Shown here one piece after another: positions 5,456-59,600 of a DNA stretch of 64,000 nt. The translations under genes and the position numbers were made by a program. Every line of letters begins with the position of its first letter. Position 1 is the stretch's first letter. This DNA comes from Eledone cirrhosa (taxonomy: Eukaryota). The notes under the pieces are model-generated. The model did not search any database and had not been told where the DNA came from. It worked only from the letters and a program-made list of their open reading frames with translations. The stretch is from the NCBI GenBank assembly GCA_964016885.1, contig OZ024742.1:372310001-372374000 (forward strand). The letters run 5' to 3'.

Positions 5456-5519
5456 TTATTATTTAAATGTGTATTCTACCTTTTCTTGTAATTCTAAACT
5501 TCTCTTTTTTAATATCTAG

Positions 5520-5732: not shown

Positions 5733-5734
5733 GT

Positions 5735-5797
5735 AACTACTACTACTACTACTACTACTAACTACTACTACTAACACTACCACTACTCCTGCTTCTG

Positions 5798-5830
<33 letters not shown>

Positions 5831-5875
5831 ACACTACTACTACTACTGCTACTAACACTACTACTACTACTACTG

Positions 5876-5929
<54 letters not shown>

Positions 5930-6020
5930 ACACCAATACTACTAACACTACTACTACTACTGCTGCTGCTACTACTACTACTACTACTGTTGCTGCTCCT
6001 GCTACTACTACTTCTTCACC

Positions 6021-6050
<30 letters not shown>
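5735..6050. repeat. (ACT)n then (CAC)n(CAT)n microsatellite
   Basis: Direct. Confidence 0.95.
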
Positions 6051-6051
<1 letters not shown>

Positions 6052-6356
6052 ATCTACTTCCACTCTCCATGTTGACATGGGTTGGACAGTTTATTATTGT
6101 CTAAGACAAGATTGTTTGGATATCATGCCTTTCTTATACATTCCATACTTCTGTATAAGTTTTATTACTGGATACCCTTCCTAATGCCAACCAGTGTACA
6201 GAGTGTACTGGGTGTACTGAATGTACAGAGTGTACTGGGTGCGTTTTATCATAGCTCAGCACATGAGAGGTTGTTATGTTCTCAGCAAGCCTAAAGAGTT
6301 CTCTTTACCTTATGTTGTTTCAGTTTACTTGTCAACCATTTTACAGGTGGTATTGA

Positions 6357-35189: not shown

Positions 35190-38100
35190 TTAAACCTTAA
35201 CCTTCTTGCTAACTACTTAAACCTTAACCTTCTCGCTAACTACCCAATATCTTCACCCGCCCCCATGCACCACCATTATTACGTGGGCCAATCATAAGTC
35301 AGAGGCCTATACTATCGCTTACCTGGTCGCCTTTCGATATGATGGATGGACTACGGAATTCTGGAGAGTTGAAAAGAAAAATCTGGACGCTCAGTGACAA
35401 TGCCAAAGATAAAGACAAATTCACCTCATGGACGAGAATGCAAGGACTCCTCCTCTTTGTTTCGGCTGCGGATGGCTAACATAACCCCATCTCCCCCATC
35501 CCCCCTGCGCCCCACCGCTCCCACCCTCCAAACGCAATCCAAAACTTCAGAGTTGGTACCATGAATGTAGGCACCTTAAAGGGTCGCTCTAACGAGGTTG
35601 TAGAAATGCTTGAACATAAGGAGGTCGATGTTTGTTGTATTCAAGAGACCAGGTGGAGGGGTGGGTCTGCTAGATTCATTGTGGGTAAAGAACGATGCTA
35701 TAAGCTTTTCTGGGTGGGAAATGACAATGGGCTGGGTGGAGTAGGAATCATGGTAGCAGAAAAGTGGGCAGATAAGATAATAGACGTAAATAGAGTGAAC
35801 GACAGAATAATTAAAATAAGACTTGTCCTCAATAGAACTATGGTGACAGTAATATCTGCGTACGCACCCCAATCCGGACTGCCCGGCACTATAAAAGACA
35901 GATTCTATATGACACTGATGCTCACTACCTCCCAAATAACCGACAGTGACTATATAATTATTGCAGGCGACCTAAATGGTCACGTTGGACAACATTGTGA
36001 CGGCTATGACGGAATCCATGGAGGCTATGGGTTTGGTACTAGAAATGAGGAAGGCTCCAGAATCCTGGAATTCTGTGACGCAAATAACCTAACTATCTGT
36101 AACACTAACTTAAAAAAATGAGACAATCACTTGATCACCTATAGATCGGGGGAACACACAAGCCAGGTAGATTATATCCTTACCAGGAGACGTGACAGAG
36201 TGTCTGTTGTAAACACTAAATCCCCCCCCCCCCCCTGAAGAATGCACATCTCAACATAGACTCATAATTAGCGACCTCATAGTCAGGACGAGATGTATTC
36301 GACAACAGAAGAGGACTATCCTCAGGAGAAAAATATGGAAATTAAAGGACCCCACAACCAGTCATAAATTTAAAAGCATATTACTTGATGCTTTTGATAG
36401 TAAGGAAGAGCAATTAGAGTCGTACACTATAGAGGAACAGTGGGAATTCCTGAAAGCTAACCTGCTGAAGGCGACAGATGAAACCTGTGGCTGGAGCAGG
36501 CCTATAGGCAGGAGGAGAGTAACATGGTGGTGGAACAGTAAGGTGGAGAGGTCAATCAAGGCCAAGAAGCAGGCTTGGAAAGCATGGCGGGATGGGGGAA
36601 GTAGAGAAGACTATCAAGTGGCCAGGAGGGAAGCTAGGAGACAAGTGTACTTCGCAAGAAGGGAAGCAGAGGAAAGAAAGTTCAAGCATATTCTACAACG
36701 CGAGGACCAAAAACGTGAGGTGTTCAGAATTGCTAGGCAATGTGTCAAGGAAAACAGTGATACTGTCGGGGAGAAGTGTGTCCTAAATGATGATGGTGTA
36801 CTTGCCATCACTGACGCTGATAAGAAGGTAGCTTGGAAGTGTCACTACGAAAGGCTACTAAATGAGGAGAATAATTGGGAGAAAGACAGTCTCCCCCACA
36901 TTGACCCAATAGAGGGACCAGCAGTGCAAGTTGAAGGTAGTATAATAAGTAAGGCGATCAAAGACATGAAGACGGGCAAGGTGGCCGGGCCTTCGGAAAT
37001 AGTTGCCGAAATGCTGAAAGCATCTGGAACGGTGGGACACACTATGGTCACCCGGATAGTAAACCAAATCATACAGAATAGGGTCGTTCCGAAGGACTCG
37101 CGCAGCAGCATCATCATTAACTGCTACAAGGGTAAAGGTGATGCCCTAGATAGGGGAAACTATAAACAGAGAGCAAATTGATCTAGACGAAATGCAGTTC
37201 GGGTTTGTGTCAGGTAAAAGTACAACAGACGCTCTTTTCATTGTACGACAACTACAGGAGAAGTACCTAGCTAAAAGTAAACCCCTATACTTAGCTTTTG
37301 TTGACTTGGAGAAAGCCTTTGACAGAGTACCCCGCTCGATTATCTGGTGGGCCCTTAGAAAACTAGGTGTTGATGAATGGCTTGTGAGAGCTAGACAAGC
37401 CATGTATAAAGAAACAGTCAGCAAGGTTAGAATTAACAACGAATATAGTGAAGAGTTTGGCGTAAAAGTTGGTGTTCATCAGGGCTCCGTCCTTAGCCCC
37501 CTACTATTTATTATTGCCCTTCAGGCTATAACAGAGGAGTTCAAGACCAGCTGCCCATGGGAACTCCTATATGGAGATGATCTAACGCTCATAGCTGAAT
37601 CAATGGCTGAACTAGAGAAGAAATTCCAAACATGAAGCATGGCCTAGAATCAAAAGGCCTTAAAGTTAACTTGTCTAAGACTAAAGTTCTAGTTTGTAGG
37701 AAGGAAAATAAGACACCGGTCCCATCTGGGAAATGGCCATGCTCAGTGTGTAGGAAAGGAGTAGGTAGAAACTCCATTTTATGTCCCAAATGCAAAGTAT
37801 GGGTGCATAAAAGATGTAGTGGGATCACAGGTAAGCTAACTAAGAATATAGATTTTATATGTGGCCGGTGCTCTGGTGCAATAAGTAGCAGCAAGTGCCC
37901 AGAGAATACTAGCTCATTCCATTGCACAGATGGTTCTATAGAAATAGTGGACAGCTTCCGTTACCTGGGTGATAAAATCAGCAGTGGGGGAGGGTACTCT
38001 GAAAGTACAGTAACTAGAGTCAGAACAGGATGGAAAAAGTTCAGAGAGCTTATACCACTATTGGCCGCTAAAGGGTTCTCTCTAAAAATGAAAGGCAGGC

Positions 38101-38908
38101 TGTATGATGCCTGCATACGAACAGCAATGTTACATGGCAGTGAGACCTGGGCATTGTGTGCAGAGGATATACGCAGACTGGAGAGAAACAAAGCTTGCAT
38201 GCTCCGCTGGATGTGTAATAGTAATATACGTGAACGGCAAAGCATAAACGAACTAAGGGAGAAATTAGAAATAAGAGGGATCAGATGCTGTTTACTCGAG
38301 AGAAGACTACGTTGGTATGGTCACGTGATACGCATGAAAGACGTATAAAAAAGTGCAGGGAAATAAAAATAGACGGTAGCCACGGAGTAGGCAGACCCAG
38401 AAAAACCTGGGACGACTTGATAAATTCTGACCTCACACACTTACACCTCTCCAAGACAATGTCACTGGACCGAGAGCTTTGGCGCTACACAGTAATAGAG
38501 AAGACCCGCCTTACCTAATTACAAAGTGAAACCTACTACAGTCAGTAGGCACCTCTAACAAAATACACCCCCGTCCCACTACTCTCACCCCATCCACACC
38601 ACCCCTTTCAATGTAAAGTTATGTTGGTGTCACAACATCCAGCCCGAAACAAATGAGGTCGTGTAGGTGTCATGACAAAAAAAGACACAGTCCACGCTGT
38701 AATGTGGCCGTGTAGGTAACACGGTAAAAACCTCTCAGTTCCACACTGTAAATGTGGTTGGTGTTAGGAAGGGCATCCAGCCGTAGAAAACCCGCCAGAC
38801 AGTCCTATGCGAGCAAGACAACCACTCTTGCCTCAAGTGGGAAAATTCTTGTCCAAACCCATGCAAGCGTGGAATATGGACGTTAAATGATGATGATGAT
38901 GATGATGA

Positions 38909-38911: not shown

Positions 38912-38993
<82 letters not shown>

Positions 38994-39301
38994 TGAAACA
39001 AAATGAAAACGAAATTTCATTTCTCACTCTTAGTATGGCACTTACTTAAATGTAAGTATGCATGTATACGTACATACATATATGTATATAGACGTACAGT
39101 AGCATGCATATATATATATATACATATATATATACATATGCATACAGGTACACATACATATATGCACGTATCAGTTTAGCGGCGCTTATTATTATTATTA
39201 TAACATCGCTTTGTTCGTTTGTAAACAAACTGAACAGCCTGAATTTATGCCATACGGTGTTAAGGCAACCACGTCACCTTTTTGTTCAACACTGACACAG
39301 G

Positions 39302-39346
39302 AACGATGTACTAGTTTCAAGCTTGTTAGCTATCATCAGCACCGTT
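39302..39346 (-). ncRNA. Minimal type I hammerhead ribozyme motif
   Basis: Exact reverse complement of 39689-39733. Confidence 0.75.
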
Positions 39347-39607
39347 TACCCATCTGCCAGATAGTTGAACGTTCGAAAGTATATACTTTCCTTATGAAAA
39401 TTAACGACTGAGCAGCCTAATTTGCATATTGAGTGAGTTAAATCGGTCAGGCATACCGAAAACGATAAATTGAAACAAATGTATGTACGTATACATGCAT
39501 ACTTACATTTAAGTAAGTGCCATACTAAGAGTGAGAAATGAAATTTCGTTTTCATTTTGTTTCAATTTATCGTTTTCGGGATGCCTGACCGATTTAACTC
39601 ACTCAAT

Positions 39608-39615
39608 ATGCAAAT
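39608..39615 (+). promoter_or_regulatory. Octamer motif ATGCAAAT (mirror copy at 39420-39427)
   Basis: Exact octamer about 75 nt upstream of the hammerhead. Function is unproven. Confidence 0.35.
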
Positions 39616-39688
39616 TAGGCTGCTCAGCCGTTAATTTTCATAAGGAAAGTATATACTTTCGAACGTTCAACTATCTGGCAGATGGGTA

Positions 39689-39733
39689 AACGGTGCTGAT
39701 GATAGCTAACAAGCTTGAAACTAGTACATCGTT
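39689..39733 (+). ncRNA. Minimal type I hammerhead ribozyme motif
   Basis: AACGGTG-CTGATGA-T AGCT AACA AGCT T-GAAA-C TA G-TA|CATCGTT. Stem I is 7 bp, stem III is the palindromic ACTAGT, and the predicted cut is after 39726. Confidence 0.75.
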
Positions 39734-39987
39734 CCTGTGTCAGTGTTGAACAAAAAGGTGACGTGGTTGCCTTAACACCGTATGGCATAAATTCAGGCTG
39801 TTCAGTTTGTTTACAAACGAACAAAGCGACGTTATAATAATAATAATAAGCGCCGCTAAACTGATACGTGCATATATGTATGTGTACCTGTATGCATATG
39901 TATATATATATGTATATATATATATATATATGCATGCTACTGTACGTCTGTATACATATATGTATGTACGTATACATGCATACTTAC

Positions 39988-40133: not shown

Positions 40134-40993
40134 ATTAGCAACGGAGGTGGGTGCTCAGAAAGTACAATAACTAGGGTAAGAACGGGATGGAAGAAGTTTA
40201 AGGAACTACTACCACTGCTAGCTGCAAAAGGCTTCTCCCTCAGAATGAAAGGCAGACTGTATGATGCGTGTATCCGAACAGCGATGTTGCATGGTAGTGA
40301 GACCTGGGCGCTGAAGGTGGAAGACTTACGTAGATTAGAGAGAAACGAAGCCTGCATGCTCCGATGGATGTGTAACAGTAATATACGTGAACGACAAAGC
40401 ATAAAGGAATTGAGAGAGAGACTGAGCATAAGAGGAATCAAATGCTGCGTGCAGGAGAGGCGGTTACGCTGGTATGGACATGTGATGCGTATGAAGGATG
40501 ACAGCTGCATAAAAAAGTGCAGAGCACTAGAAGTTGATGGAAACCGCGGAGTGGGGAGACCCAAGATGACTTGGGATGAAGTGATAAAAGCCGACCTTAC
40601 CCAACTACACCTCTCAAAGTCAATGACACACGACCGTGACTTCTGGCGTCACGCAGTAATACAGGGTACCCGACCTCCCATGGGTACATGCTGAAGCATA
40701 TAAACAATATGCCCCCCCCCCCCACCGCAAGGTGGTCGTGGAGGTGCCACGGCAAAAAAGCGCCCAGCCCACACTGTAAAGTGGACGTGTAGGCGCCACG
40801 AAAAAGCACCCAGCACTCACTGTAAATGAGGTTGGTGTTAGGAAGGGCATCCAGCTGTAGAAATCAAGCCAGATCAGTTCCTGTATGAGCAAGGCATGGT
40901 CAGCCGACCAGACACTGCCCACAACAGGACAACCCGTCTAACCCATGCTAGCGTGGAAGAACGGACGTAAAACGGTGATGATGATGATGATGA

Positions 40994-40997
<4 letters not shown>
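40134..40997 (+). mobile_element. 5'-truncated young RTE copy (subfamily A) inside (TA)n
   Basis: Nearly identical to the reverse complement of 43983-44845. Confidence 0.95.
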
Positions 40998-41059
<62 letters not shown>

Positions 41060-41065
<6 letters not shown>

Positions 41066-41407
41066 AGGCACATGGCCTAGTGGTTAGGGCATTGGGCTTG
41101 CAATGGAAAGGTTGTGAGTTCAATTCTCAGACCAGGTGATGTGTTGTTTCCTTGAGCAAGACACTTTATTTCACATTGCTCAATTTTACTCAGCTGTAGA
41201 AATGAGATGATAGGGACCCCAGTCGCTATCATTCCACTGCAAAGTGGTCGTGTAGGTGCCGCGGCAAAAAAGCACCCAGCACTCACTGTAAATGAGGTTG
41301 GTGTTAGGAAGGGCATCCAGATTAGAAATCAAGCCAGAATCAGTTCCCATCCGACCCTTGCAAGCAGGGAAAAGCGGACGTAAAATGAAATGATGATGAT
41401 GATGATG

Positions 41408-41409
<2 letters not shown>
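41060..41409 (+). mobile_element. SINE family 2 copy
   Basis: Highly similar to 25660-26006. Confidence 0.88.
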
Positions 41410-41438
<29 letters not shown>

Positions 41439-41576
41439 AATATATTTATATATGTATGTATATATATATATATATTTATAGTGGTAGATAATATGGAAGG
41501 TAATATCCGTAGTGGTAGAGCACTCAGTCCATGGGACGAGTTAGGTAGAAGTGGTTACACAACAGTTAGTTCACCA

Positions 41577-41619
41577 TACCGAGTACATTTGTTTCACCTT
41601 AGAGGATCTTCAGCTCGTA
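41577..41619 (-). ncRNA. Minimal type I hammerhead ribozyme motif
   Basis: Reverse complement reads TACGAG-CTGAAGA-T CC TCTAA GG T-GAAA-C AAAT G-TA|CTCGGTA. Confidence 0.65.
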
Positions 41620-41637
41620 ATAGACATCAATGTCCAT

Positions 41638-41680
41638 TACGAGCTGAGGAGCCGCTAAGGTGAAACAATTGTTCTCGGTA
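41638..41680 (+). ncRNA. Minimal type I hammerhead ribozyme motif
   Basis: TACGAG-CTGAGGA-GCC GCTAA GGT-GAAA-C AATT G-TT|CTCGGTA, with palindromic stem III ACAATTGT. Confidence 0.7.
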
Positions 41681-41789
41681 TGGTGAACTAACTGTTGTGT
41701 AACCACTTCTATATATATTTATATTTTTGTGTGTATATGTGTGTAACATCATCATTGTTTAATGTCCATATATATATACATTATGTCAG

Positions 41790-42250: not shown

Positions 42251-42314
42251 ATATTAAGCGATAGCATTACTCGAAACGAGTTGCAGCCATCATATATATA
42301 TATTGTGTATATAT

Positions 42315-42645
42315 ATCATCTTCATTTTACGTCTGCTTTTCCCTGCTTGCAAGGGTGGGACGGGAACTGATTCTGGCTTGATTTCTACAGCTGGATGCCC
42401 TTCTTAACACCAACCTCATTTACAGTGAGTGCTGGGAGCTTTTTTGCCGTGGCACCTCCACGACCACTTTGCAGTGGAATGATAGGGACCCCAGTCCTAT
42501 CATCTCATTTCTACAGCTGAGTAAACTGGAACAATGTGAAATAAAGTGTCTTGCTCAAGGAAACAACACATCACCCGGTCTGAGAATTGAACTCACAACC
42601 TTTCGATTGCATGGCTCTAACCACTAAACCATGTGCCTCCATATA
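42315..42645 (-). mobile_element. SINE family 2 copy
   Basis: Reverse complement of 25660-26006. Confidence 0.88.
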
Positions 42646-42925
42646 TATATATATACTTATATTTTAATTATGATTGCCACTGCATCTGATAAGCAAATTA
42701 ATCCCAAAGTAGAAGCTGTTGTCATTGATTAAGTTCAGAGCTGGCCATTTGTGAAACACATGTTATGCATAATATACAGATAAAATATGCTAAACTGAAA
42801 CTTCAATCTCTCATTCTTAATATGTATGTGTGTGTATATGTATATATATACATACATATATATATATGTGTATGTATATATACATATATGTATGTATACA
42901 TACATATAGATATATACATATATGC

Positions 42926-43983: not shown

Positions 43984-46900
43984 CATCATCATCATCATCA
44001 TCACCGTTTTACGTCCGTTCTTCCACGCTAGCATGGGTTAGACGGGTTGTCCTGTTGTGGGCAGTGTCTGGTCGGCTGACCATGCCTTGCTCATACAGGA
44101 ACTGATCTGGCTTGATTTCTACAGCTGGATGCCCTTCCTAACACCAACCTCATTTACAGTGAGTGCTGGGTGCTTTTTCGTGGCGCCTACACGTCCACTT
44201 TACAGTGTGGGCTGGGTGCTTTTTTGCCGTGGCACCTCCACGACCACCTTGCGGTGGGGGGGGGGGGCATATTGTTTATATGCTTCAGCATGTACCCATG
44301 GGAGGTCGGGTACCCTGTATTACTGCGTGACGCCAGAAGTCACGGTCGTGTGTCATTGACTTTGAGAGGTGTAGTTGGGTAAGGTCGGCTTTTATCACCT
44401 CATCCCAAGTCATCTTGGGTCTCCCCACTCCGCGGTTTCCATCAACTTCTAGTGCTCTGCACCTTTTTATGCAGCTGTCATCCTTCATACGCATCACATG
44501 TCCATACCAGCGTAACCGCCTCTCCTGCACGCAGCATTTGATTCCTCTTATGCTCAGTCTCTCTCTCAATTCATTTATGCTTTGTCGTTCACGTATATTA
44601 CTGTTACACATCCATCGGAGCATGCAGGCTTCGTTTCTCTCTAATCTACGTAAGTCTTCCACCTTCAGCGCCCAGGTCTCACTACCATGCAACATCGCTG
44701 TTCGGATACACGCATCATACAGTCTGCCTTTCATTCTGAGGGAGAAGCCTTTTGCAGCTAGCAGTGGTAGTAGTTCCCTAAACTTCTTCCATCCCGTTCT
44801 TACCCTAGTTATTGTACTTTCTGAGCACCCACCTCCGTTGCTAATTCGGTCACCTAGGTAGCAGAAGCTGTCTACTGTTTCTACAGGGCCCTCCCAGAGA
44901 TTGGTGGTACTTGTTTCCTGTGGCTGTTTGCTTGCTGTTTCAGCACAGCTGCTGCATGTGAATCCTACATTCTTAATTAAGCTTCCTGAGATCCCGCTAC
45001 ATCTCTTGTGTACCCATTGTTTGCATTTGGGGCAAAGAATGGAGTTCCTACCTACACCTTTCCTACATACTGAGCAAGGCCATTTCCCTGAGGGGATCTG
45101 GGTTCTGTTTTCTCGTCTACTTATAAGGACCTTAGTCTTTGTCATGTTGACTTTGAGGCCCTTTCTCTCTAGTCCCTGCTTCCAGGTTTGGAATTTATTC
45201 TCTAGTTCTACCATAGATTCAGCTATGAGTGCGAGGTCATCAGCATACAGGAGTTCCCATGGGCATCCGGTCTTAAACTCCTCCGTTATTGCCTGCAGGA
45301 CTATGATGAACAGGAGAGGGCTAAGAACAGAGCCCTGGTGGACCCCAACCTGTACGCGAAATTCCTCGCTATACTCATTGCCAATCCTAACTTTGCTGAC
45401 TGCTCCCCTATACATGGCTTGTACCGCTTTCCCAAGCCATTCATCTACTCCTAGTTTTCTAAGAGCCCACCAGATTACTGCACGTGGAACTCTGTCAAAG
45501 GCTTTCTCAAGGTCGACAAATGCCAAGTAGAGTGGCTTACTTTTAGCTAGGTACTTTTCCTGTAATTGCCTCACAAGGAAGAGCGCATCAGTGGTGCCTT
45601 TCCCTGGAACAAACCCAAATTGCATCTCGTCTATATTCACCCGGTCCCTAATCAGCTGTGCTATAACTCTTTCTGTTACTTTCATGACCTGGTCCATCAA
45701 CTTTATACCTCTATAGTTTCCTCTATCTAGTGCATCGCCTTTACCTTTGTAGCAGTTGACAATGATGCTACTGCACCAATCTTTTGGTATGGCCCCCTCT
45801 AGTATTACCTGGTTAACGATACGTGTGGTTATAGTGTGACCTACAGACCCAGATGCCTTCAGCATCTCGGCAGCTATACCCGATGGACCGGTTGCCTTCC
45901 CTATCTTCATATCTCTGATTGCCTTACTTACTACGCTGCCGCTGACTTGTACTGCTGGTCCCTCTATAGGGTCTACGTGGGGTAGGGTCTCTTCTTCCCA
46001 TGCATTCTCCTCATTTAGTAATCTATCATAATGACTCTTCCATGCATCTTTCTTCTCAGCACTTGTGAGGGCAAGCTCACCTTTATCATTCCGGATACAC
46101 TTCTCTCCAATGACATCACAACTATCTCTGACACACTGCCTCGCAATCTTGAATACCTCCTGTTTCTGGTCCTCACGTTGTAAAACATGCTTGAATTTTC
46201 TATCCTCTGCTTCCCTCCTAGCTAAGTATACTTGTCGCCTAGCTTCCCTCTTGGTCTCTATGTAATGTACCCTGCTCCCCCCGTTCTTCCATTCTTTCCA
46301 TGCCTGTCTCTTGGCCTTGACTGCTTCATCTACCTTATTGTTCCACCACCAAGTCACTCTCCTCCTGCTTGAGGTCTTACTCCAGCCACAAACCTCATCC
46401 GTCGCCTCTAGTAAGTTATTTTTTAGGAACTCCCAGTTCTCTTCTACGTTAAATGTCTCTATCTGTTCTTCTTTACTGTCGTAGGCGTTGAGTAAAATAT
46501 CTTTAAATCTGTTACTGGTTGAGGGGACTTTCAGCTTCCAGATCTTTCTTCTCCAGGTTGGCCTCTGTTTCAGGGCTCGTCTAGTTCTGACCGTGAGGTC
46601 GCTGACAACTAAGCTATGTTGGGATGTACATTCCTCACTAGGGAAGGCTTTTGTGTTTACGACCGTCCATCTGTCACGTCCTCTGATGAGGATAAAATCT
46701 AACTGACTAGAGTGCTCCCCTGATCTATAGGTGATCAGGTGGTTGTCGGGTTTTTTAAAGTTTGTGTTACATATCGACATGTCATTGGCGTCGCAGAATT
46801 CTAGAAGTCTGAATCCTTCCTCATTCCTTGTGCCAACTCCATGGCCTCCATGTACTCTATTGAAGCCGTCGCAGTGTTTACCTACGTGTCCGTTAAAATC

Positions 46901-47643
46901 TCCTGCAATGATTAGGAAGTCCTTGTCGTCTGTTAGAGCAGTAGTGTGTATTAGGGACTCGTAAAACCTATCCTTAAGTTCGTCTGGCAGCCCCGATTGG
47001 GGTGCGTAAGCTGATATTATTGTGGTAATTGTCTTATTCAGGACTAGTCTGAGTTTAATGATTCTTGCATTTACCCTGTACACTGAGATTACTTTATCTA
47101 CCCACTTGTCAGCTAATAGTATACCTACACCACCCATCCCATCGTCATTTCCCACCCAGAAAAATTTGTAGCACTGGCTTTTTCCTACAAGGACTCTAGC
47201 AGACCCTCCTCTCCATCTAGTCTCTTGCACACAGCATACATCAACTTCCTTTCGCTCTAGCATTTCTACGATTTCTCCTGCTCTTCCTTTCATTGAGCCT
47301 ACATTGATGGTACCAACTCGGAGTTTTGGGCATTTGTCGACACTCGTAGGGGAGGGTCTCTGGGTTGGCGCTTCACGTGGGTGCTTGGTAGCTCGCAGAT
47401 TCATATTTCATCTATTGATTCAGAGTTGCTCGTGTATTCCCAGCTCATCCATCCCTAACGGTGGGAAAATTGAGGGCTAGAAGGACAGTGGTGGTGGGGT
47501 AATGGCAGGGTGTGTTGGGATGCGCCAGAGGAGGAGAGAGTTAGTTAGGCAGGTAGTAGCAGCAGCAGCAGTGGAAATGGCATGCTAGGTTTGATTGGTC
47601 GAATAGACTATGGTGGTGTGTGGGGGTGGGGGGGAGGGAAATT
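43984..47643 (-). mobile_element. Full-length intact RTE LINE (subfamily A), ~3.66 kb, inserted in the satellite
   Basis: About 240-bp 5' UTR, single ORF, about 300-bp 3' UTR, (ATG)n tail; the satellite resumes on both sides. Confidence 0.96.
44285..47404 (-). CDS. RTE ORF: APE endonuclease + reverse transcriptase with a PHD-like Zn finger, 1039 aa
   Basis: VQETRW, AYAPQ, GDFNGH, SQH (APE); NYRGIKL, DLEKAFD, GVHQGSVLSP, YADD, FCYLG (RT). No stops. Confidence 0.96.
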   Translation of the reverse strand: MNLRATKHPREAPTQRPSPTSVDKCPKLRVGTINVGSMKGRAGEIVEMLERKEVDVCCVQETRWRGGSARVLVGKSQCYKFFWVGNDDGMGGVGILLADKWVDKVISVYRVNARIIKLRLVLNKTITTIISAYAPQSGLPDELKDRFYESLIHTTALTDDKDFLIIAGDFNGHVGKHCDGFNRVHGGHGVGTRNEEGFRLLEFCDANDMSICNTNFKKPDNHLITYRSGEHSSQLDFILIRGRDRWTVVNTKAFPSEECTSQHSLVVSDLTVRTRRALKQRPTWRRKIWKLKVPSTSNRFKDILLNAYDSKEEQIETFNVEENWEFLKNNLLEATDEVCGWSKTSSRRRVTWWWNNKVDEAVKAKRQAWKEWKNGGSRVHYIETKREARRQVYLARREAEDRKFKHVLQREDQKQEVFKIARQCVRDSCDVIGEKCIRNDKGELALTSAEKKDAWKSHYDRLLNEENAWEEETLPHVDPIEGPAVQVSGSVVSKAIRDMKIGKATGPSGIAAEMLKASGSVGHTITTRIVNQVILEGAIPKDWCSSIIVNCYKGKGDALDRGNYRGIKLMDQVMKVTERVIAQLIRDRVNIDEMQFGFVPGKGTTDALFLVRQLQEKYLAKSKPLYLAFVDLEKAFDRVPRAVIWWALRKLGVDEWLGKAVQAMYRGAVSKVRIGNEYSEEFRVQVGVHQGSVLSPLLFIIVLQAITEEFKTGCPWELLYADDLALIAESMVELENKFQTWKQGLERKGLKVNMTKTKVLISRRENRTQIPSGKWPCSVCRKGVGRNSILCPKCKQWVHKRCSGISGSLIKNVGFTCSSCAETASKQPQETSTTNLWEGPVETVDSFCYLGDRISNGGGCSESTITRVRTGWKKFRELLPLLAAKGFSLRMKGRLYDACIRTAMLHGSETWALKVEDLRRLERNEACMLRWMCNSNIRERQSINELRERLSIRGIKCCVQERRLRWYGHVMRMKDDSCIKRCRALEVDGNRGVGRPKMTWDEVIKADLTQLHLSKSMTHDRDFWRHAVIQGTRPPMGTC

Positions 47644-50600
47644 TAAACTGTAAATCTCATTCTATAAACTGTAAATCTCATTCTATAAACTGTAAATCTC
47701 ATTCTATAGAAACTGTAAATCTCATTCTATATAAACTGTAAATCTTATTCTATAAACTGTAAATCTCTTTCTATATAAACTGTAAATCTCATTCTATAAA
47801 CTGTAAATCTCATTCTATATAAACTGTAAATCTCATTCTATATAAACTGTAAATCTCATTCTATATAAACTGTAAATCTCATTCTATAAACTGTAAAACT
47901 CTTTCCATATAAACTGTAAATCTCATTCTATATGAACTGTAAATCTCTTTTTATATAAACTGTAAATCTCTTTCTATATAAACGGTAAATCTCATTCTAT
48001 AGAAACTGTAAATCTCTTTCTATATAAACTGTAAATCTCATTCTATATAAACTGTAAATCTCTTTCTATATAAACTGTAAATCTCATTCTATAAACTGTA
48101 AATCTCATTCTATAAACTGTAAATCTCATTCTATATAAACTGTAAATCTCATTCTATATAAACTGTAAATCTCATTCTATATAAACTGTAAATGTCATTC
48201 TATATAAACTGTAAATCTCATTCTATATAAACTGTAAATCTCATTCTATATAAACTGTAAATCTCTTTCTATATAAACTGTAAATCTCATTCTATAAACT
48301 GTAAATCTCATTCTATATAAAATGTAAATCTCTTTCTATATAAACTGTAAATCTCATTCTATATAAACTGTGAATCTCATTCTATAAACTGTAAATCTCT
48401 TTCTATATAAACTGTAAATCTCATTCTATATAAGCTGTAAATCTCATTCTATAAACTGTAAATCTCTTTCTATATAAACTGTAAATCTCATTCTATATAA
48501 ACTGTATATATCATTCTATAAACTGTAAATCTCAGTCTATAAACTGTAAATCTCTTTCTATATAAACTGTAAATCTCTTTCTATATGAACTGTAAATCTC
48601 TTTCTATATAAACTGTGAATCTCATTCTATATAAGCTGTAAATCTCATTCTATGAACTGTAAATCTCTTTCTATATAAACTGTAAATCTCATTCTATATA
48701 AACTGTAAATCTCATTCTATAAACTGTAAATCTCTTTCTATATAAACTGTAAATCTCATTCTATATAAACTGTAAATCTCTTTCTATATAAACTGTAAAT
48801 TTCATTCTATAACCTGTAAATCTCTTTCTATATAAACAGTAAATCTCATTCTATATAAACTGTAAATCTCTTTCTATATAAACTGTAAATCTCATTCTAT
48901 ATAAACTGTGAATCTCATTCTATAAACTGTAAATCTCTTTCTATATAAACTGTAAATCTCATTCTATATACACTGTAAATCTCTTTCTATATAAACGGTA
49001 AATCTCATTCTATATAAACTGTAAATCTCATTCTATAAACTGTGAATCCCTTTCTATATAAACTGTAAATCTCGTTCTATATAAGCTGTAAATCTCATTC
49101 TATAAACTGTAAATCTCTTTCTATATAAGCTGTAAATCTCATTCTATATAAACTGTAAATCTCATTCTATAAACTGTAATTCTCATTCTATGAACTGTAA
49201 ATCTCTTTCTATATAAACTGTAAATCTCATTCTATATAAACTGTAAATCTCATTCTATAAACTGTAAATCTCATTCTATATAAACTGTAAATCTCTTTCT
49301 ATATAAACTGTAAATCTCATTCTATATAAACTGTAAATCTCATTCTATCAACTGTAAATCTCTTTCTATATAAACTGTAAATCTCATTCTATATAAGCTG
49401 TAAATCTCATTCTATAAACTGTAAATCTCTTTCTATATAAACTGTAAATCTCATTCTATATAAACTGTATATATCATTCTATAAACTGTAAATCTCAGTC
49501 TATAAACTGTAAATCTCTTTCTATATAAACTGTAAATCTCTTTCTATATGAACTGTAAATCTCTTTCTATATAAACTGTAAATCTCATTCTATATAAGCT
49601 GTAAATCTCATTCTATGAACTGTAAATCTCTTTCTATATAAACTGTAAATCTCATTCTATAAACTGTAAATCTCTTTCTATATAAACTGTAAATCTCATT
49701 CTATATAAACTGTAAATCTCTTTCTATATAAACTGTAAATTTCATTCTATAACCTGTAAATCTCTTTCTATATAAACTGTAAATCTCATTCTATATAAAC
49801 TGTAAATCTCTTTCTATATAAACTGTAAATCTCATTCTATGTAAACTGTGAATCTCATTCTATAAACTGTAAATCTCTTTCTATATAAACTGTAAATCTC
49901 ATTCTATATACACTGTAAATCTCATTCTATATAAACGGTAAATCTCATTCTATATAAACTGTAAATCTCATTCTATAAACTGTGAATCTCTTTCTATATA
50001 AACTGTAAATCTCGTTCTATATAAGCTGTAAATCTCATTCTATAAACTGTAAATCTCTTTCTATATAAGCTGTAAATCTCATTCTATATAAACTGTAAAT
50101 CTCATTCTATAAACTGTAAATCTCATTCTATGAACTGTAAATCTCTTTCTATATAAACTGTAAATCTCATTCTATATAAACTGTAAATCTCATTCTATAA
50201 ACTGTAAATCTCTTTCTGTATAAACTGTAAATCTCATTCTACATAAACTGTAAATCTCTTTCTATATAAACTGTAAATTTCATTCTATAAACTGTAAATC
50301 TCTTTCTATATAAACTGTAAATCTCATCCTATATAAACTGTGAATCTCTTTCTATATAAACTGTAAATCTCATTCTATATAAACTGTGAATCTCATTCTA
50401 TAAACTGTAAATATCTTTCTATATAAACTGTAAATCTCATTCTATATACACTGTAAATCTCTTTCTATATAAACTGTAAATCTCATTCTATATAAACTGT
50501 AAATCTCATTCTATAAACTGTAAATCTCTTTCCATATAAACTGTAAATCTCATTCTATATAAGCTGTAAATCTCATTCTATAAACTGTAAATCTCTTTCT

Positions 50601-53600
50601 ATATAAACTGTAAATCTCATTCTATATAAACTGTGAATCTCATTCTATAAACTGTAAATCTCTTTCTATATAAACTGTAAATCTCATTCTATATACACTG
50701 TAAATCTCATTCTATATAAACTGTAAATCTCATTCTATAAACTGTGAATCTCTTTCTATATAAACTGTAAATCTCGTTCTATATAAGCTGTAAATCTCAT
50801 TCTATAAACTGTAAACCTCTTTCTATATAAGCTGTAAATCTCATTCTATATAAACTGTAAATCTCATTCTATAAACTGTAAATCTCATTCTATGAACTGT
50901 AAATCTCTTTCTATATAAACTGTAAATCTCATTCTATATAAACTGTAAATCTCATTCTATAAACTGTAAATCTCTTTCTGTATAAACTGTAAATCTCATT
51001 CTACATAAACTGTAAATCTCTTTGTATATAAACTGTAAATTTCATTCTATAAACTGTAAATCTCTTTCTATATAAACTGTAAATCTCATCCTATATAAAC
51101 TGTGAATCTCTTTCTATATAAACTGTAAATCTCATTCTATAAACTGTAAATCTCTTTCTATATAAACTGTAAATCTCATTCTATATACACTGTAAATCTC
51201 TTTCTATATAAACTGTAAATCTCATTCTATACAAACTGTAAATCTCATTCTATAAACTGTAAATCTCTTTCCATATAAACTGTAAATCTCATTCTATATA
51301 AGCTGTAAATCTCATTCTATAAACTGTAAATCTCTTTCTATATAAACTGTAAATCTCATTCTATATAAACTGTATATATCATTCTATAAACTGTAAATCT
51401 CATTCTATAAACTGTAAATCTCTTTCTATACAAACTGTAAATATCATTCTATACAAACTGTAAATCTCATTCTATATTAACTGTAAATCTGATTCTATAA
51501 ACTGTAAATCTCTTTCTATATAAACTCTTAATCTCATTCTATATAAACTGTAAATCTCATTCTATAAACTGTAAATCTCATTCTATATAAGCTGTAAATC
51601 TCATTCTATAAACTGTAAAACTATTTCTATATAAACTGTAAATCTCATTCTATATAATCTGTATAAATCATTCTATAAACTGTAAATCTATTTCTATATA
51701 CAGTGTAAATCTCATTCTGTATAAACTGTAAATCTCATTCTATAAACTGTAAATCTCATTCTATATAAACTGTAAATCTCATTCTATAAACTGTAAATCT
51801 CTTTCTATATAAACTGTAAATCTCTTTCTATATAAACTGTAAATCTCATTCTATAAACTGTAAATCTCATTCTATATAAACTGTAAATCTCTTTCTATAT
51901 AAACTGTAAATCTCATTCTATATAAACTGTAAATCTCATTCTATCAACTGTAAATCCCTTTCTATATAAACTGTAAATCTCATTCTATATAAGCTGTAAA
52001 TCTCATTCTATAAACTGTAAATCTCTTTCTATATAAACTGTAAATCTCATTCTATATAAACTGTATATATCATTCTATAAACTGTAAATCTCAGTCTATA
52101 AACTGTAAATCTCTTTCTATATAAACTGTAAATCTCTTTCTATATGAACTGTAAATCTCTTTCTATATAAACTGTGAATCTCATTCTATATAAGCTGTAA
52201 ATCTCATTCTATGAACTGTAAATCTCTTTCTATATAAACTGTAAATCTCATTCTATATAAACTGTAAATCTCATTCTATAAACTGTAAATCTCTTTCTAT
52301 ATAAACTGTAAATCTCATTCTATATAAACTGTAAATCTCTTTCTATATAAACTGTAAATTTCATTCTATAACCTGTAAATCTCTTTCTATATAAACAGTA
52401 AATCTCATTCTATATAAACTGTAAATCTCTTTCTATATAAACTGTAAATCTCATTCTATATAAACTGTGAATCTCATTCTATAAACTGTAAATCTCTTTC
52501 TATATAAACTGTAAATCTCATTCTATATACACTGTAAATCTCTTTCTATATAAACGGTAAATCTCATTCTATATAAACTGTAAATCTCATTCTATAAACT
52601 GTGAATCCCTTTCTATATAAACTGTAAATCTCGTTCTATATAAGCTGTAAATCTCATTCTATAAACTGTAAATCTCTTTCTATATAAGCTGTAAATCTCA
52701 TTCTATATAAACTGTAAATCTCATTCTATAAACTGTAAATCTCATTCTATGAACTGTAAATCTCTTTCTATATAAACTGTAAATCTCATTCTATATAAAC
52801 TGTAAATCTCATTCTATAAACTGTAAATCTCATTCTATATAAACTGTAAATCTCTTTCTATATAAACTGTAAATCTCATTCTATATAAACTGTAAATCTC
52901 ATTCTATCAACTGTAAATCTCTTTCTATATAAACTGTAAATCTCATTCTATATAAGCTGTAAATCTCATTCTATAAACTGTAAATCTCTTTCTATATAAA
53001 CTGTAAATCTCATTCTATATAAACTGTATATATCATTCTATAAACTGTAAATCTCAGTCTATAATCTGTAAATCTCTTTCTATATAAACTGTAAATCTCT
53101 TTCTATATGAACTGTAAATCTGTTTCTATATAAACTGTAAATCTCATTCTATATAAGCTGTAAATCTCATTCTATGAACTGTAAATCTCTTTCTATATAA
53201 ACTGTAAATCTCATTCTATAAACTGTAAATCTCTTTCTATATAAACTGTAAATCTCTTTCTATATAAACTGTAAATTTCATTCTATAACCTGTAAATCTC
53301 TTTCTATATAAACTGTAAATCTCATTCTATATAAACTGTAAATCTCTTTCTATATAAACTGTAAATCTCATTCTATGTAAACTGTGAATCTCATTCTATA
53401 AACTGTAAATCTCTTTCTATATAAACTGTAAATCTCATTCTATATACACTGTAAATCTCTTTCTATATAAACGGTAAATCTCATTCTATATAAACTGTAA
53501 ATCTCATTCTATAAACTGTGAATCTCTTTCTATATAAACTGTAAATCTCGTTCTATATAAGCTGTAAATCTCATTCTATAAACTGTAAATCTCTTTCTAT

Positions 53601-56600
53601 ATAAGCTGTAAATCTCATTCTATATAAACTGTAAATCTCATTCTATAAACTGTAAATCTCATTCTATGAACTGTAAATCTCTTTCTATATAAACTGTAAA
53701 TCTCATTCTATATAAACTGTAAATCTCATTCTATAAACTGTAAATCTCTTTCTGTATAAACTGTAAATCTCATTCTACATAAACTGTAAATCTCTTTCTA
53801 TATAAACTGTAAATTTCATTCTATAAACTGTAAATCTCTTTCTATATAAACTGTAAATCTCATCCTATATAAACTGTGAATCTCTTTCTATATAAACTGT
53901 AAATCTCATTCTATATAAACTGTGAATCTCATTCTATAAACTGTAAATATCTTTCTATATAAACTGTAAATCTCATTCTATATACACTGTAAATCTCTTT
54001 CTATATAAACTGTAAATCTCATTCTATATAAACTGTAAATCTCATTCTATAAACTGTAAATCTCTTTCCATATAAACTGTAAATCTCATTCTATATAAGC
54101 TGTAAATCTCATTCTATAAACTGTAAATCTCTTTCTATATAAACTGTAAATCTCATTCTATATAAACTGTGAATCTCATTCTATAAACTGTAAATCTCTT
54201 TCTATATAAACTGTAAATCTCATTCTATATACACTGTAAATCCCATTCTATATAAACTGTAAATCTCATTCTATAAACTGTGAATCTCTTTCTATATAAA
54301 CTGTAAATCTCGTTCTATATAAGCTGTAAATCTCATTCTATAAACTGTAAATCTCTTTCTATATAAGCTGTAAATCTCATTCTATATAAACTGTAAATCT
54401 CATTCTATAAACTGTAAATCTCATTCTATGAACTGTAAATCTCTTTCTATATAAACTGTAAATCTCATTCTATATAAACTGTAAATCTCATTCTATAAAC
54501 TGTAAATCTCTTTCTGTATAAACTGTAAATCTCATTCTACATAAACTGTAAATCTCTTTGTATATAAACTGTAAATTTCATTCTATAAACTGTAAATCTC
54601 TTTCTATATAAACTGTAAATCTCATCCTATATAAACTGTGAATCTCTTTCTATATAAACTGTAAATCTCATTCTATAAACTGTAAATCTCTTTCTATATA
54701 AACTGTAAATCTCATTCTATATACACTGTAAATCTCTTTCTATATAAACTGTAAATCTCATTCTATACAAACTGTAAATCTCATTCTATAAACTGTAAAT
54801 CTCTTTCCATATAAACTGTAAATCTCATTCTATATAAGCTGTAAATCTCATTCTATAAACTGTAAATCTCTTTCTATATAAACTGTAAATCTCATTCTAT
54901 ATAAACTGTATATATCATTCTATAAACTGTAAATCTCATTCTATAAACTGTAAATCTCTTTCTATACAAACTGTAAATCTCATTCTATATAAACTGTAAA
55001 TCTCATTCTATATTAACTGTAAATCTGATTCTATAAACTGTAAATCTCTTTCTATATAAACTCTTAATCTCATTCTATATAAACTGTAAATCCCATTCTA
55101 TAAACTGTAAATCTCATTCTATATAAGCTGTAAATCTCATTCTATAAACTGTAAAACTATTTCTATATAAACTGTAAATCTCATTCTATATAATCTGTAT
55201 ATATCATTCTATAAACTGTAAATCTATTTCTATATACAGTGTAAATCTCATTCTGTATAAACTGTAAATCTCATTCTATAAACTGTAAATCTCATTCTAT
55301 ATAAACTGTAAATCTCATTCTATAAACTGTAAATCTCTTTCTATATAAACTGTAAATCTCTTTCTATATAAACTGTAAATCTCATTCTATAAACTGTAAA
55401 TCTCATTCTATATAAACTGTAAATCTCTTTCTATATAAACTGTAAATCTCATTCTATATAAACTGTAAATCTCATTCTATCAACTGTAAATCCCTTTCTA
55501 TATAAACTGTAAATCTCATTCTATATAAGCTGTAAATCTCATTCTATAAACTGTAAATCTCTTTCTATATAAACTGTAAATCTCATTCTATATAAACTGT
55601 ATATATCATTCTAAAAACTGTAAATCTCAGTCTATAAACTGTAAATCTCTTTCTATATAAACTGTAAATCTCTTTCTATATGAACTGTAAATCTCTGTCT
55701 ATATAAACTGTGAATCTCATTCTATATAAGCTGTAAATCTCATTTTATGAACTGTAAATCTCATTCTATATAAACTGTAAATCTCTTTCTATATAAACTG
55801 TAAATCTCATTCTATATAAACTGTAAATCTCATTCTATCAACTGTAAATCTCTTTCTATATAAACTGTAAATCTCATTCTATATAAGCTGTAAATCTCAT
55901 TCTATAAACTGTAAATCTCTTTCTATATAAACTGTAAATCTCATTCTATATAAACTGTATATATCATTCTATAAACTGTAAATCTCAGTCTATAATCTGT
56001 AAATCTCTTTCTATATAAACTGTAAATCTCTTTCTATATGAACTGTAAATCTGTTTCTATATAAACTGTAAATCTCATTCTATATAAGCTGTAAATCTCA
56101 TTCTATGAACTGTAAATCTCTTTCTATATAAACTGTAAATCTCATTCTATAAACTGTAAATCTCTTTCTATATAAACTGTAAATCTCTTTCTATATAAAC
56201 TGTAAATTTCATTCTATAACCTGTAAATCTCTTTCTATATAAACTGTAAATCTCATTCTATATAAACTGTAAATCTCTTTCTATATAAACTGTAAATCTC
56301 ATTCTATGTAAACTGTGAATCTCATTCTATAAACTGTAAATCTCTTTCTATATAAACTGTAAATCTCATTCTATATACACTGTAAATCTCTTTCTATATA
56401 AACGGTAAATCTCATTCTATATAAACTGTAAATCTCATTCTATAAACTGTGAATCTCTTTCTATATAAACTGTAAATCTCGTTCTATATAAGCTGTAAAT
56501 CTCATTCTATAAACTGTAAATCTCTTTCTATATAAGCTGTAAATCTCATTCTATATAAACTGTAAATCTCATTCTATAAACTGTAAATCTCATTCTATGA

Positions 56601-59600
56601 ACTGTAAATCTCTTTCTATATAAACTGTAAATCTCATTCTATATAAACTGTAAATCTCATTCTATAAACTGTAAATCTCTTTCTGTATAAACTGTAAATC
56701 TCATTCTACATAAACTGTAAATCTCTTTCTATATAAACTGTAAATTTCATTCTATAAACTGTAAATCTCTTTCTATATAAACTGTAAATCTCATCCTATA
56801 TAAACTGTGAATCTCTTTCTATATAAACTGTAAATCTCATTCTATATAAACTGTGAATCTCATTCTATAAACTGTAAATATCTTTCTATATAAACTGTAA
56901 ATCTCATTCTATATACACTGTAAATCTCTTTCTATATAAACTGTAAATCTCATTCTATATAAACTGTAAATCTCATTCTATAAACTGTAAATCTCTTTCC
57001 ATATAAACTGTAAATCTCATTCTATATAAGCTGTAAATCTCATTCTATAAACTGTAAATCTCTTTCTATATAAACTGTAAATCTCATTCTATATAAACTG
57101 TGAATCTCATTCTATAAACTGTAAATCTCTTTCTATATAAACTGTAAATCTCATTCTATATACACTGTAAATCCCATTCTATATAAACTGTAAATCTCAT
57201 TCTATAAACTGTGAATCTCTTTCTATATAAACTGTAAATCTCGTTCTATATAAGCTGTAAATCTCATTCTATAAACTGTAAATCTCTTTCTATATAAGCT
57301 GTAAATCTCATTCTATATAAACTGTAAATCTCATTCTATAAACTGTAAATCTCATTCTATGAACTGTAAATCTCTTTCTATATAAACTGTAAATCTCATT
57401 CTATATAAACTGTAAACCTCATTCTATAAACTGTAAATCTCTTTCTGTATAAACTGTAAATCTCATTCTACATAAACTGTAAATCTCTTTGTATATAAAC
57501 TGTAAATTTCATTCTATAAACTGTAAATCTCTTTCTATATAAACTGTAAATCTCATCCTATATAAACTGTGAATCTCTTTCTATATAAACTGTAAATCTC
57601 ATTCTATAAACTGTAAATCTCTTTCTATATAAACTGTAAATCTCATTCTATATACACTGTAAATCTCTTTCTATATAAACTGTAAATCTCATTCTATACA
57701 AACTGTAAATCTCATTCTATAAACTGTAAATCTCTTTCCATATAAACTGTAAATCTCATTCTATATAAGCTGTAAATCTCATTCTATAAACTGTAAATCT
57801 CTTTCTATATAAACCGTAAATCTCATTCTATATAAACTGTATATATCATTCTATAAACTGTAAATCTCATTCTATAAACTGTAAATCTCTTTCTATACAA
57901 ACTGTAAATCTCATTCTATATAAACTGTAAATCTCATTCTATATTAACTGTAAATCTGATTCTATAAACTGTAAATCTCTTTCTATATAAACTCTTAATC
58001 TCATTCTATATAAACTGTAAATCCCATTCTATAAACTGTAAATCTCATTCTATATAAGCTGTAAATCTCATTCTATAAACTGTAAAACTATTTCTATATA
58101 AACTGTAAATCTCATTCTATATAATCTGTATATATCATTCTATAAACTGTAAATCTATTTCTATATACAGTGTAAATCTCATTCTGTATAAACTGTAAAT
58201 CTCATTCTATAAACTGTAAATCTCATTCTATATAAACTGTAAATCTCATTCTATAAACTGTAAATCTCTTTCTATATAAACTGTAAATCTCTTTCTATAT
58301 AAACTGTAAATCTCATTCTATAAACTGTAAATCTCATTCTATATAAACTGTAAATCTCTTTCTATATAAACTGTAAATCTCATTCTATATAAACTGTAAA
58401 TCTCATTCTATCAACTGTAAATCCCTTTCTATATAAACTGTAAATCTCATTCTATATAAGCTGTAAATCTCATTCTATAAACTGTAAATCTCTTTCTATA
58501 TAAACTGTAAATCTCATTCTATATAAACTGTATATATCATTCTAAAAACTGTAAATCTCAGTCTATAAACTGTAAATCTCTTTCTATATAAACTGTAAAT
58601 CTCTTTCTATATGAACTGTAAATCTCTGTCTATATAAACTGTGAATCTCATTCTATATAAGCTGTAAATCTCATTTTATGAACTGTAAATCTCTTTCTAT
58701 ATAAACTGTAAATTTCATTCTATATAAACTGTAAATCTCTTTCTATATAAACTGTAAATTTCATTCTATAACCTGTAAATCTCTTTCTATATAAACTGTA
58801 AATCTCATTCTATATAAACTGTAAATCTCTTTCTATATAAACTGTAAATCTCATTCTATATAAACTGTGAATCTCATTCTATAAACTGTAAATCTCTTTC
58901 TATATAAACTGTAAATCTCATTCTATATACACTGTAAATCTCTTTCTATATAAACGGTAAATCTCATTCTATATAAACTGTAAATCTCATTCTATAAACT
59001 GTGAATCTCTTTCTATATAAACTGTAAATCTCGTTCTATATAAGCTGTAAATCTCATTCTATAAACTGTAAAACTCTTTCTATATAAGCTGTAAATCTCA
59101 TTCTATATAAACTGTAAATCTCATTCTATATAAACTGTAAATCTCATTCTATAAACTGTAAATCTCTTTCTGTATAAACTGTAAATCTCATTCTACATAA
59201 ACTGTAAATCTCTTTCTATATAAACTGTAAATTTCATTCTATAAACTGTAAATCTCTTTCTATATAAACTGTAAATCTCATCCTATATAAACTGTGAATC
59301 TCTTTCTATATAAACTGTAAATCTCATTCTATATAAACTGTGAATCTCATTCTATAAACTGTAAATCTCTTTCTATATAAACTGTAAATCTCATTCTATA
59401 TACACTGTAAATCTCTTTCTATATAAACTGTAAATCTCATTCTATATACACTGTAAATCTCTTTCTATATAAACTGTAAATCTCATTCTATATAAACTGT
59501 ATATATCATTCTATAAACTGTAAATCTCATTCTATAAACTGTAAATCTCTTTCTATACAAACTGTAAATCTCATTCTATATAAACTGTAAATCTCATTCT

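What the first reader, a model, noticed from the sequence alone, without database searches (positions are those of the whole stretch)
41480..41711. Second, unrelated hammerhead fold-back element
Seen: a ~166-bp near-perfect hairpin whose arms each encode a type I hammerhead (+41638-41680, -41577-41619). The few differences between arms fall inside the ribozyme at tolerated positions: N7 (G/A), 10.1, loop II, loop III and H17 (U/A). The invariant core is kept. The flanks share no similarity with the 39-kb element. Inference: an independent family with the same head-to-head architecture, and the differences suggest selection on catalysis or two distinct template molecules.
Basis: partly seen in the sequence, partly recalled or inferred. 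Interest (0 to 1): 0.78.

Follow-up and report, generated by a model that had tools for sequence, protein, structure and literature searches.

The report
Head-to-head stub of Penelope retrotransposon
This hairpin is one of thousands of short copies of a known kind of jumping gene (Hydra-type Penelope): two back-to-back copies of its ribozyme-bearing end, likely made in a single insertion event and now likely decaying; the layout is already published.

Summary
Observation confirmed: 82-nt arms (41546-41627, 41630-41711), six mismatches, a minimal type I hammerhead in each arm, no DNA similarity to the 39-kb element. It is not a separate fold-back family or a MITE. A 30-mer of it occurs 5,132 times in the genome, and longer copies run upstream into an RT/endonuclease ORF with the motifs of Hydra-clade Penelope-like elements (PLEs). 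51 of 90 unselected loci are head-to-head; 43 of 45 scorable ones pair one end with a 65-nt tail and one without, as here. Inverted truncated copy, one-sided tail and (TA)n target are published, including for a Hydra-clade element. 'Selection on catalysis' is not supported for this copy: the left-arm variant combination is unique in the genome, the loop III change breaks the dimerisation palindrome, and the hairpin is predicted to block ribozyme folding. Arms usually share one source variant (N7: 113 GG, 11 AA, 10 mixed); two templates remain possible here. Modest extra: 5' ends pile up within 60 nt at the ribozyme, suggesting run-off at the RNA start after priming from both nicked strands. 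This scan has reported the same pattern in at least 29 genomes.

The parts
41480..41627 (-). Long arm: 5'-truncated 3' end (pLTR) of a Hydra-clade PLE, ending at the long 3' end (...CTACCACT)
   Evidence: 93% identical to positions 2386-2532 of a natural near-full-length copy, L092
41480..41545 (-). One-sided tail (65 nt in the family); in tandem copies it runs straight into the 5' UTR of the ORF
   Evidence: 43 of 45 scorable fold-backs have it on one arm only
41577..41619 (-). Minimal type I hammerhead, GUA triplet, predicted cut after 41584; loop III palindrome broken by a private change
41628..41629 (.). Head-to-head junction (2 nt); both arms truncated about 14 nt before C3 of the ribozyme
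41630..41711 (+). Short arm: 5'-truncated 3' end of the same PLE family, ending at the short 3' end (...ACCACTTCTA)
   Evidence: 96% identical to positions 2386-2467 of L092
41638..41680 (+). Minimal type I hammerhead, GUU triplet, predicted cut after 41673; palindromic stem/loop III intact
41469..41479 (+). Candidate target-site duplication TATATATTTAT, left copy, inside the (TA)n target
   Evidence: sequence; weak because the run is low-complexity
41712..41722 (+). Candidate target-site duplication, right copy
   Evidence: sequence

Best explanation
The hairpin is a severely 5'-truncated insertion of a Hydra-clade Penelope-like retrotransposon in a (TA)n run: two head-to-head copies of the element's hammerhead-bearing end, one with the tail and one without, likely made when both nicked target strands primed reverse transcription. 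Shown: family, ORF motifs, architecture, the long/short end rule, the target, the decay pattern. Inferred: the endonuclease nicks both strands; one strand primes at the long ACCAC site and the other at the short ACCAC site 65 nt upstream, usually on the same RNA; both cDNAs stop at or near the RNA's 5' end just upstream of the ribozyme and are joined by short microhomology or a few added bases. The hammerhead is the ordinary pLTR ribozyme, copied uncut. In this copy it is a passenger that the antisense arm is predicted to keep from folding.
For: 5,132 exact 30-mer matches, reversed control 0. Longer copies continue into an ORF with RWR, DKT, DIVDFYPSI, YRDDGL, CxCX5C, VYEA..YVG, CxxC and CxH, the Hydra-clade traits in PMC8557442 section 11. 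126 homologues at E<=0.001, top ones 39-49% identical; Atlas neighbours carry RVT_1, GIY-YIG and HTH_animal. 51 of 90 unselected loci are head-to-head; 43 long+short, 1 long+long, 1 short+short, 6 unscorable. 13 of 13 long tandem copies with both ends scorable are also long+short (my tally; the other 19 of 32 regions lacked an inverted arm or a scorable far end). 103 of 129 ends abut (TA)n. Short arms can carry sequence absent from the long arm and the reverse (L107, L111, L125), so in those loci neither arm is a copy of the other. Arms share subfamily sites (N7 25 of 27 vs 13.5 expected; site 2457 39 of 40 vs 23.6) and locus-specific variants (L255, L256, L258). 18 of 22 unselected long arms that reach the ribozyme stop in 2356-2415, against 4 of 26 in the 90 nt before it. 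In vitro, a PLE protein cleaves and extends both strands and starts at two sites bounding the tail (PMC11167929).
Against: No Pfam or PDB sequence match for the ORF itself and no tree against named Hydra proteins, so the clade call rests on motifs. The same in vitro paper saw no difference in start site between strands, so the one-long-one-short rule is not explained by it. Upstream pLTRs of full-length copies do not pile up in 2356-2415 and many extend far beyond it, which a single RNA start does not explain without read-through, template jumps or circles. Shared variants between arms could also come from later gene conversion. N7-mixed loci (10) exceed the control (5 over two sites, p=0.009). 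Some junctions recur, one class with the same orientation in 5 of 5 loci.
Confidence: 0.88

Rival explanations
1. A non-autonomous fold-back element (MITE-like or retrozyme-like) that spreads as a fixed head-to-head unit.
For: Some junction sequences recur at separate loci; AATGGTCCATT has the long arm on the same side in 5 of 5 loci.
Against: Junction gaps run from -5 to +23 nt and arm lengths from tens to over 1,300 nt. Loci with one junction carry different private variants, each shared by its own two arms, and both orientations occur for two junction classes. Copies grade into full ORF-bearing elements.
Confidence: 0.05
2. Self-priming (snap-back): one cDNA or an antisense template folds back and is copied into the second arm, as proposed for rotifer PLEs in PMC3846280.
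For: Both arms often stop at almost the same position; 20 of 51 junctions overlap by 1-5 nt; arms share variants; the paper's argument from palindromic junctions.
Against: In 4 of 40 unselected long+short loci the short arm reaches more than 15 nt further 5' than the long arm; in L125 the arms do not overlap at all. Snap-back does not explain why the second arm ends at a fixed site that is also the only end of solo copies (14 of 37 solos).
Confidence: 0.15
3. This locus was built from two different RNA molecules.
For: Arms differ at N7, a family polymorphism (46 of 94 arms carry the minor base), and N7-mixed loci are about four times the control rate. L110 joins two subfamilies.
Against: Random pairing predicts 28 mixed loci, 10 seen. 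The left-arm combination of changes is unique. Arm divergence here (6 of 82) is reached by 6 of 38 unselected loci.
Confidence: 0.3
4. Both ribozymes in this copy are maintained by selection for cleavage.
For: Core intact in both arms; two changes add a possible pair to stem II (G10.1.U11.1; U-A next to loop II). At family level the only common core variant is at N7, which fits selection on source elements.
Against: Placement of differences is within chance (p=0.12, 0.41); 72 of 94 arms have an intact core anyway; the loop III change drops predicted palindrome pairing from -8.8 to -2.7 kcal/mol; predicted stem I pairing probability is about 1e-37 in the full hairpin.
Confidence: 0.04

Closest known systems
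Hydra-clade EN+ Penelope-like elements (Craig et al. 2021, PMC8557442; passages, section 11 and part 2 of 59 of the supplement read), especially Penelope-13_HM
   Same: Under 3 kb, single ORF, RWK-like, DKT, CxCX5C, CxxC/CxH motifs, C-terminal endonuclease, (TA)n target, 3' hammerhead of the CUGAnGAU...UGAA type. Penelope-13_HM is listed with a 5'-truncated inverted copy and a hammerhead on both strands.
   Different: The hammerhead differs in sequence from all listed Hydra hammerheads, including Hydra-1_oBim (compared by eye). The tail is 65 nt, not 30-40. Copy number is in the thousands, mostly ribozyme-only stubs.
Inverted-pLTR insertion unit of EN+ PLEs (Pen2a_Av, PMC3846280, passages read; Fig. 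2 legend of PMC8557442; D. virilis Penelope, PMC2377424, passages read)
   Same: Adjacent inverted truncated copy, tail on one end only, overlap at the junction, short TSD, AT-rich target.
   Different: Here the insertion has lost the ORF entirely; the long/short rule and the truncation hotspot are counted over many loci.
Minimal PLE hammerheads (Cervera and de la Pena 2014, PMC4209133; passages read) and the PAc ribozyme (PMC11167929; main text read)
   Same: Short helix I, palindromic 15.2-16.2 and loop III, predicted dimeric fold, read through uncut by RT.
   Different: Stem II is only two pairs plus U.U instead of a long helix with G10.1-C11.1; activity untested.
Non-LTR retrozymes (PMC7229834, passages read; bioRxiv 10.64898/2026.07.22.740005, parts 1-2 of 5 read)
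   Same: Non-coding, type I hammerhead, PLE-related.
   Different: Retrozymes are head-to-tail tandem monomers with no ORF. This family has an ORF-bearing master. The 39-kb element fits the retrozyme description better.

Membership tests
Hydra-clade PLE | Single ORF, RT followed by C-terminal GIY-YIG endonuclease, element under 3 kb | tested here: met
   L092 spans 2,634 bp including the upstream pLTR piece; 638-aa natural ORF in L208 and 250-aa C-terminal ORF in L091; Atlas neighbours with RVT_1 and GIY-YIG. No single intact ORF was found among fetched copies; no direct Pfam hit.
Hydra-clade PLE | RWK motif, DKT in place of DKG | tested here: met
   RWR and DKT in L092, L093, L132, L200 translations; RW[KR] and DKT conserved in homologues
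Hydra-clade PLE | CxCX5C linker; CxxC and CxH around conserved E and N; no CCHH | tested here: met
   CSCRKPEAC, CGLC...E...LN...CPH; absence of CCHH judged by eye only
Hydra-clade PLE | (TA)n insertion preference and hammerhead in the 3' repeat | tested here: met
   103 of 129 ends abut (TA)n; hammerhead about 130 nt from the long 3' end
Hydra-clade PLE | Placement inside the Hydra clade in an RT phylogeny | not tested
   No named reference proteins were at hand as usable sequences
Type I minimal hammerhead | CUGANGA, GAAA, UH core with helices I-III | tested here: met
   stem II is weak (2 bp plus U.U, or G.U in the + arm)
Type I minimal hammerhead | Compensatory covariation in helices | tested here: inconclusive
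   1 double change over 13 pairs in up to 262 arms; the family is too uniform to show it
Type I minimal hammerhead | Self-cleavage | not testable with these tools
   needs an assay; 5' ends of full-length copies do not pile up at the predicted cut
MITE / fold-back DNA transposon | Fixed length, symmetric terminal inverted repeats, fixed centre | tested here: not met
   ends are asymmetric, centres and lengths vary, copies grade into an RT ORF
Non-LTR retrozyme | Head-to-tail tandem non-coding monomers, each with a hammerhead | tested here: not met
   tandem copies of this family include the ORF

The most novel reading that the evidence does not exclude
These ribozyme-only fold-backs are fossil records of PLE integration: one RNA is primed twice, from the two nicked strands, at two ACCAC sites 65 nt apart (one per strand, almost without exception), and both cDNAs run off the RNA's start just upstream of the hammerhead and prime each other's second strand. 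That would explain the inverted copy, the one-sided tail and second-strand synthesis together.
Probability: 0.45. Interest if true: 0.45.

Novelty: new member of a known kind. Interest (0 to 1): 0.2.

Why it matters
As an object it is ordinary: a likely dead stub of a known retrotransposon clade in a published layout. Its use is as data on an open step; PMC8557442 names the formation of tandem/inverted PLE insertions as unresolved. The strict long/short pairing, the same-source arms and the truncation hotspot give precise predictions for the existing in vitro PLE system. Four searches of the held library turned up no paper counting these features, but most subscription papers are outside that library, and this scan has reported the same reading in other genomes.

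Tried and rejected
(1) Full-length copies start at the hammerhead cut: suggested by L092 (starts 1 nt after it), rejected because upstream pLTR starts in 30 loci spread from 1616 to beyond 2490. (2) Long arm N7=A with short arm N7=G as a rule (14 vs 2): an ascertainment artefact, since those loci were picked by similarity to this copy; unselected mixed loci show no such bias. (3) Correlated arm lengths: rho 0.44 in the pooled set, 0.18 (p=0.27) in 40 unselected loci; not used. (4) A pile-up at exactly 2386 is partly a reference artefact (L092 has a private base at 2385); redone with seven natural references. (5) Pfam and PDB sequence searches of the ORF gave nothing. (6) The structure prediction had not finished after nine collections, so no fold search was run. 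(8) ADAR hyper-editing at this locus: only one of six differences is A/G, and it is the family polymorphism. (9) The Fisher test printed compares windows of unequal length and is not used. (10) ARAGORN found no tRNA in the flanking SINE-like element.

Full report
Observation. The region holds an inverted repeat with 82-nt arms at 41546-41627 and 41630-41711 and a 2-nt centre. Each arm has CGAG-CUGANGA-stem II-GAAAC-loop-GUH-CUCG. My descriptor finds four such motifs in the whole window, two here and two at 39 kb. Rfam has no hammerhead hit here. The 39-kb element shares no DNA similarity (best 13 nt, E 0.095). The left arm has 66 extra bases at its outer end (41480-41545). Both ends abut (TA)n, with a candidate 11-bp duplication.

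Family. The window lies in a 3.0-Gb genome. A 30-mer of the + arm has 5,132 exact matches, the reversed control none. I took the first 100 listed places, all on one contig, and reduced them to 90 loci by merging partner arms and dropping one near-identical duplicate. Many copies extend upstream through a 3' UTR into an ORF. L092 is a near-full-length natural copy, 4671-7304; positions below are counted in its 2,532-nt body. The window's arms match 2386-2532 and 2386-2467 of it. The ORF carries RWR, DKT, DIVDFYPSI, YRDDGL, CSCRKPEAC, VVYEA..YVG, CGLC and CPH. These fit the Hydra-clade definition in PMC8557442 section 11: RWK, DKT, CxCX5C, CxxC and CxH, under 3 kb, (TA)n target. That DIVDFYPSI and YRDDGL are RT motifs is my recalled knowledge. 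126 homologues were found, one from Apostichopus japonicus, a Hydra host named in that paper; Atlas neighbours carry RVT_1, GIY-YIG and HTH_animal. Against this, Pfam and PDB sequence searches gave no hit, the fold job did not finish, and no phylogeny was run. The published Hydra hammerheads often read CUGAnGAU...UGAA like this one, and Penelope-13_HM is listed with a 5'-truncated inverted copy and a hammerhead on each strand.

Architecture. 51 of 90 unselected loci have a head-to-head junction. 43 pair a long end (2532) with a short end (2467), one is long+long, one short+short, six have an unscorable end (p=3e-11 against 50:50). Among 32 regions around long or full-length copies, the 13 with an inverted arm and a scorable far end are all long+short (my tally). 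Both ends follow an ACCAC motif, and 103 of 129 ends abut (TA)n. Junction gaps run from -5 to +23 nt. Some short junctions recur, but such loci carry different private variants, each shared by the two arms of its own locus, and two junction classes occur in both orientations; one class had the same orientation in 5 of 5. The inverted copy and one-sided tail are published (PMC8557442 Fig. 2 legend; PMC3846280; PMC2377424).

One template or two. In unselected loci the arms agree at subfamily sites: N7 25 of 27 (13.5 expected by shuffling), site 2457 39 of 40 (23.6), site 2395 15 of 16 (8.3). Genome-wide, tight-junction fold-backs are 113 GG, 11 AA and 10 mixed at N7, against 104, 2 and 28 for random pairing. 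The control, G5 or G8 to A in one arm, gives 5 loci over two sites, so mixed N7 is in modest excess (p=0.009) and a minority of loci may have two templates. For this locus, the left-arm combination is unique in the genome and G10.1 occurs in 11 scattered copies with either N7. Four differences are therefore best read as later mutations; N7 and 41622/41635 are undecided. An apparent rule of A in long arms was an artefact of picking loci by similarity to this copy.

Selection on catalysis. Five of six differences within 43 of 82 nt has p=0.12, and none in the 11 core bases p=0.41. In 94 unselected arms core bases differ from the majority at 3.4% against 2.5% in flanks, and 72 keep an intact core. 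Helices show one double change over 13 pairs. N7 is the only common variant in the core, which fits selection on source elements, not on this stub. The loop III change weakens the palindrome that minimal hammerheads are thought to need for dimers (PMC4209133): -8.8 against -2.7 kcal/mol. In a transcript through the whole element the hairpin (-142 kcal/mol) leaves stem I a predicted probability near 1e-37, against 0.24 for the + arm alone and 0.001 for the - arm alone.

Mechanism. 88 of 130 arms that reach the search 30-mer stop in 2356-2415, at a rate about ten times that further upstream. For long arms found through their partner, 4 of 26 stop in the 90 nt before this zone and 18 of the remaining 22 inside it. 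In L107, L111 and L125 each arm holds sequence the other lacks, so both were copied from RNA in those loci. In L125 the long arm is only the tail, and 4 of 9 inverted long arms of full-length copies stop at 2469-2489 (my tally), as if blocked by an enzyme already at the short site. In vitro, a PLE protein cleaves and extends both target strands, starts at two sites that bound the tail, and uses uncut RNA (PMC11167929). D. virilis Penelope starts transcription inside its pLTR. I infer twin priming on one RNA, run-off near the RNA start, and joining of the two cDNAs. A GCGCATGCGC motif just upstream of the zone resembles an NRF1 promoter site (recalled, untested). Against run-off: upstream pLTRs of full-length copies spread from 1616 to beyond 2490. 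No RNA data were available. The self-priming model of PMC3846280 remains a rival for part of the loci.

Papers seen. PMC8557442: passages, section 11, one part of the supplement. PMC11167929: whole main text. PMC3846280, PMC4209133, PMC2377424, PMC7229834: passages. bioRxiv 10.64898/2026.07.22.740005: parts 1-2 of 5. Earlier scan notes: none by sequence; 185 findings in at least 29 genomes hold the same words, several with the same twin-priming and transcript-start reading. I reached that reading before opening them; they gave me PMC3846280.

Verdict. A real feature and a new family member of a known kind, Hydra-clade PLE by motifs (0.88). Interest 0.2.

Noticed in passing
window 38988-39933: The 39-kb element is a young monomer of about 472 nt with a type I hammerhead, 25 matches in the genome, mostly head-to-tail arrays; no family ORF seen in 20 loci; inverted in 3 of them (the window, L229, L230). 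It fits a non-LTR retrozyme.
   Followed up: partly
window 41042-41429 and 42292-42662: The insertion sits in the (TA)n run behind a SINE-like repeat with a weak tRNA-like head (Rfam 19.9 bits, below gathering; ARAGORN none) and a 3' end shared with the local LINEs; an 88% identical inverted copy lies 0.9 kb downstream.
   Followed up: partly
window 44288-47407 (-) and 40134-40998 (+): A 1,040-aa LINE-type ORF (RTE-like by recall) on the minus strand; its 3' 865 bp recur inverted at 99.4% identity 3 kb away; an older copy (73-76%) lies at 35539-38508.
   Followed up: no
window 7773-19374 and 47644-63999: Large satellites: a 42-bp unit that reverses orientation near 17395, and a 23-bp unit of over 700 copies.
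   Followed up: no
L091 6109-8769 (-); L095 838-2043 (+); L223 3-1574 (-): Other PLE-like ORFs beside copies of this family: one of a different type in L091, and Hydra-like ones with CNCR..CPL linkers in L095 and L223.
   Followed up: no
junctions listed; L254-L258: Recurrent non-native junction bases (for example AATCGGATT) look templated from the palindromic GGATCC in stem II, which suggests short template jumps at the joint.
   Followed up: partly
family sites 2378-2395, 2457, 2481, 2526: At least four subfamilies; in two of them a C at 2395 extends stem I by one pair (42 of 216 arms).
   Followed up: partly
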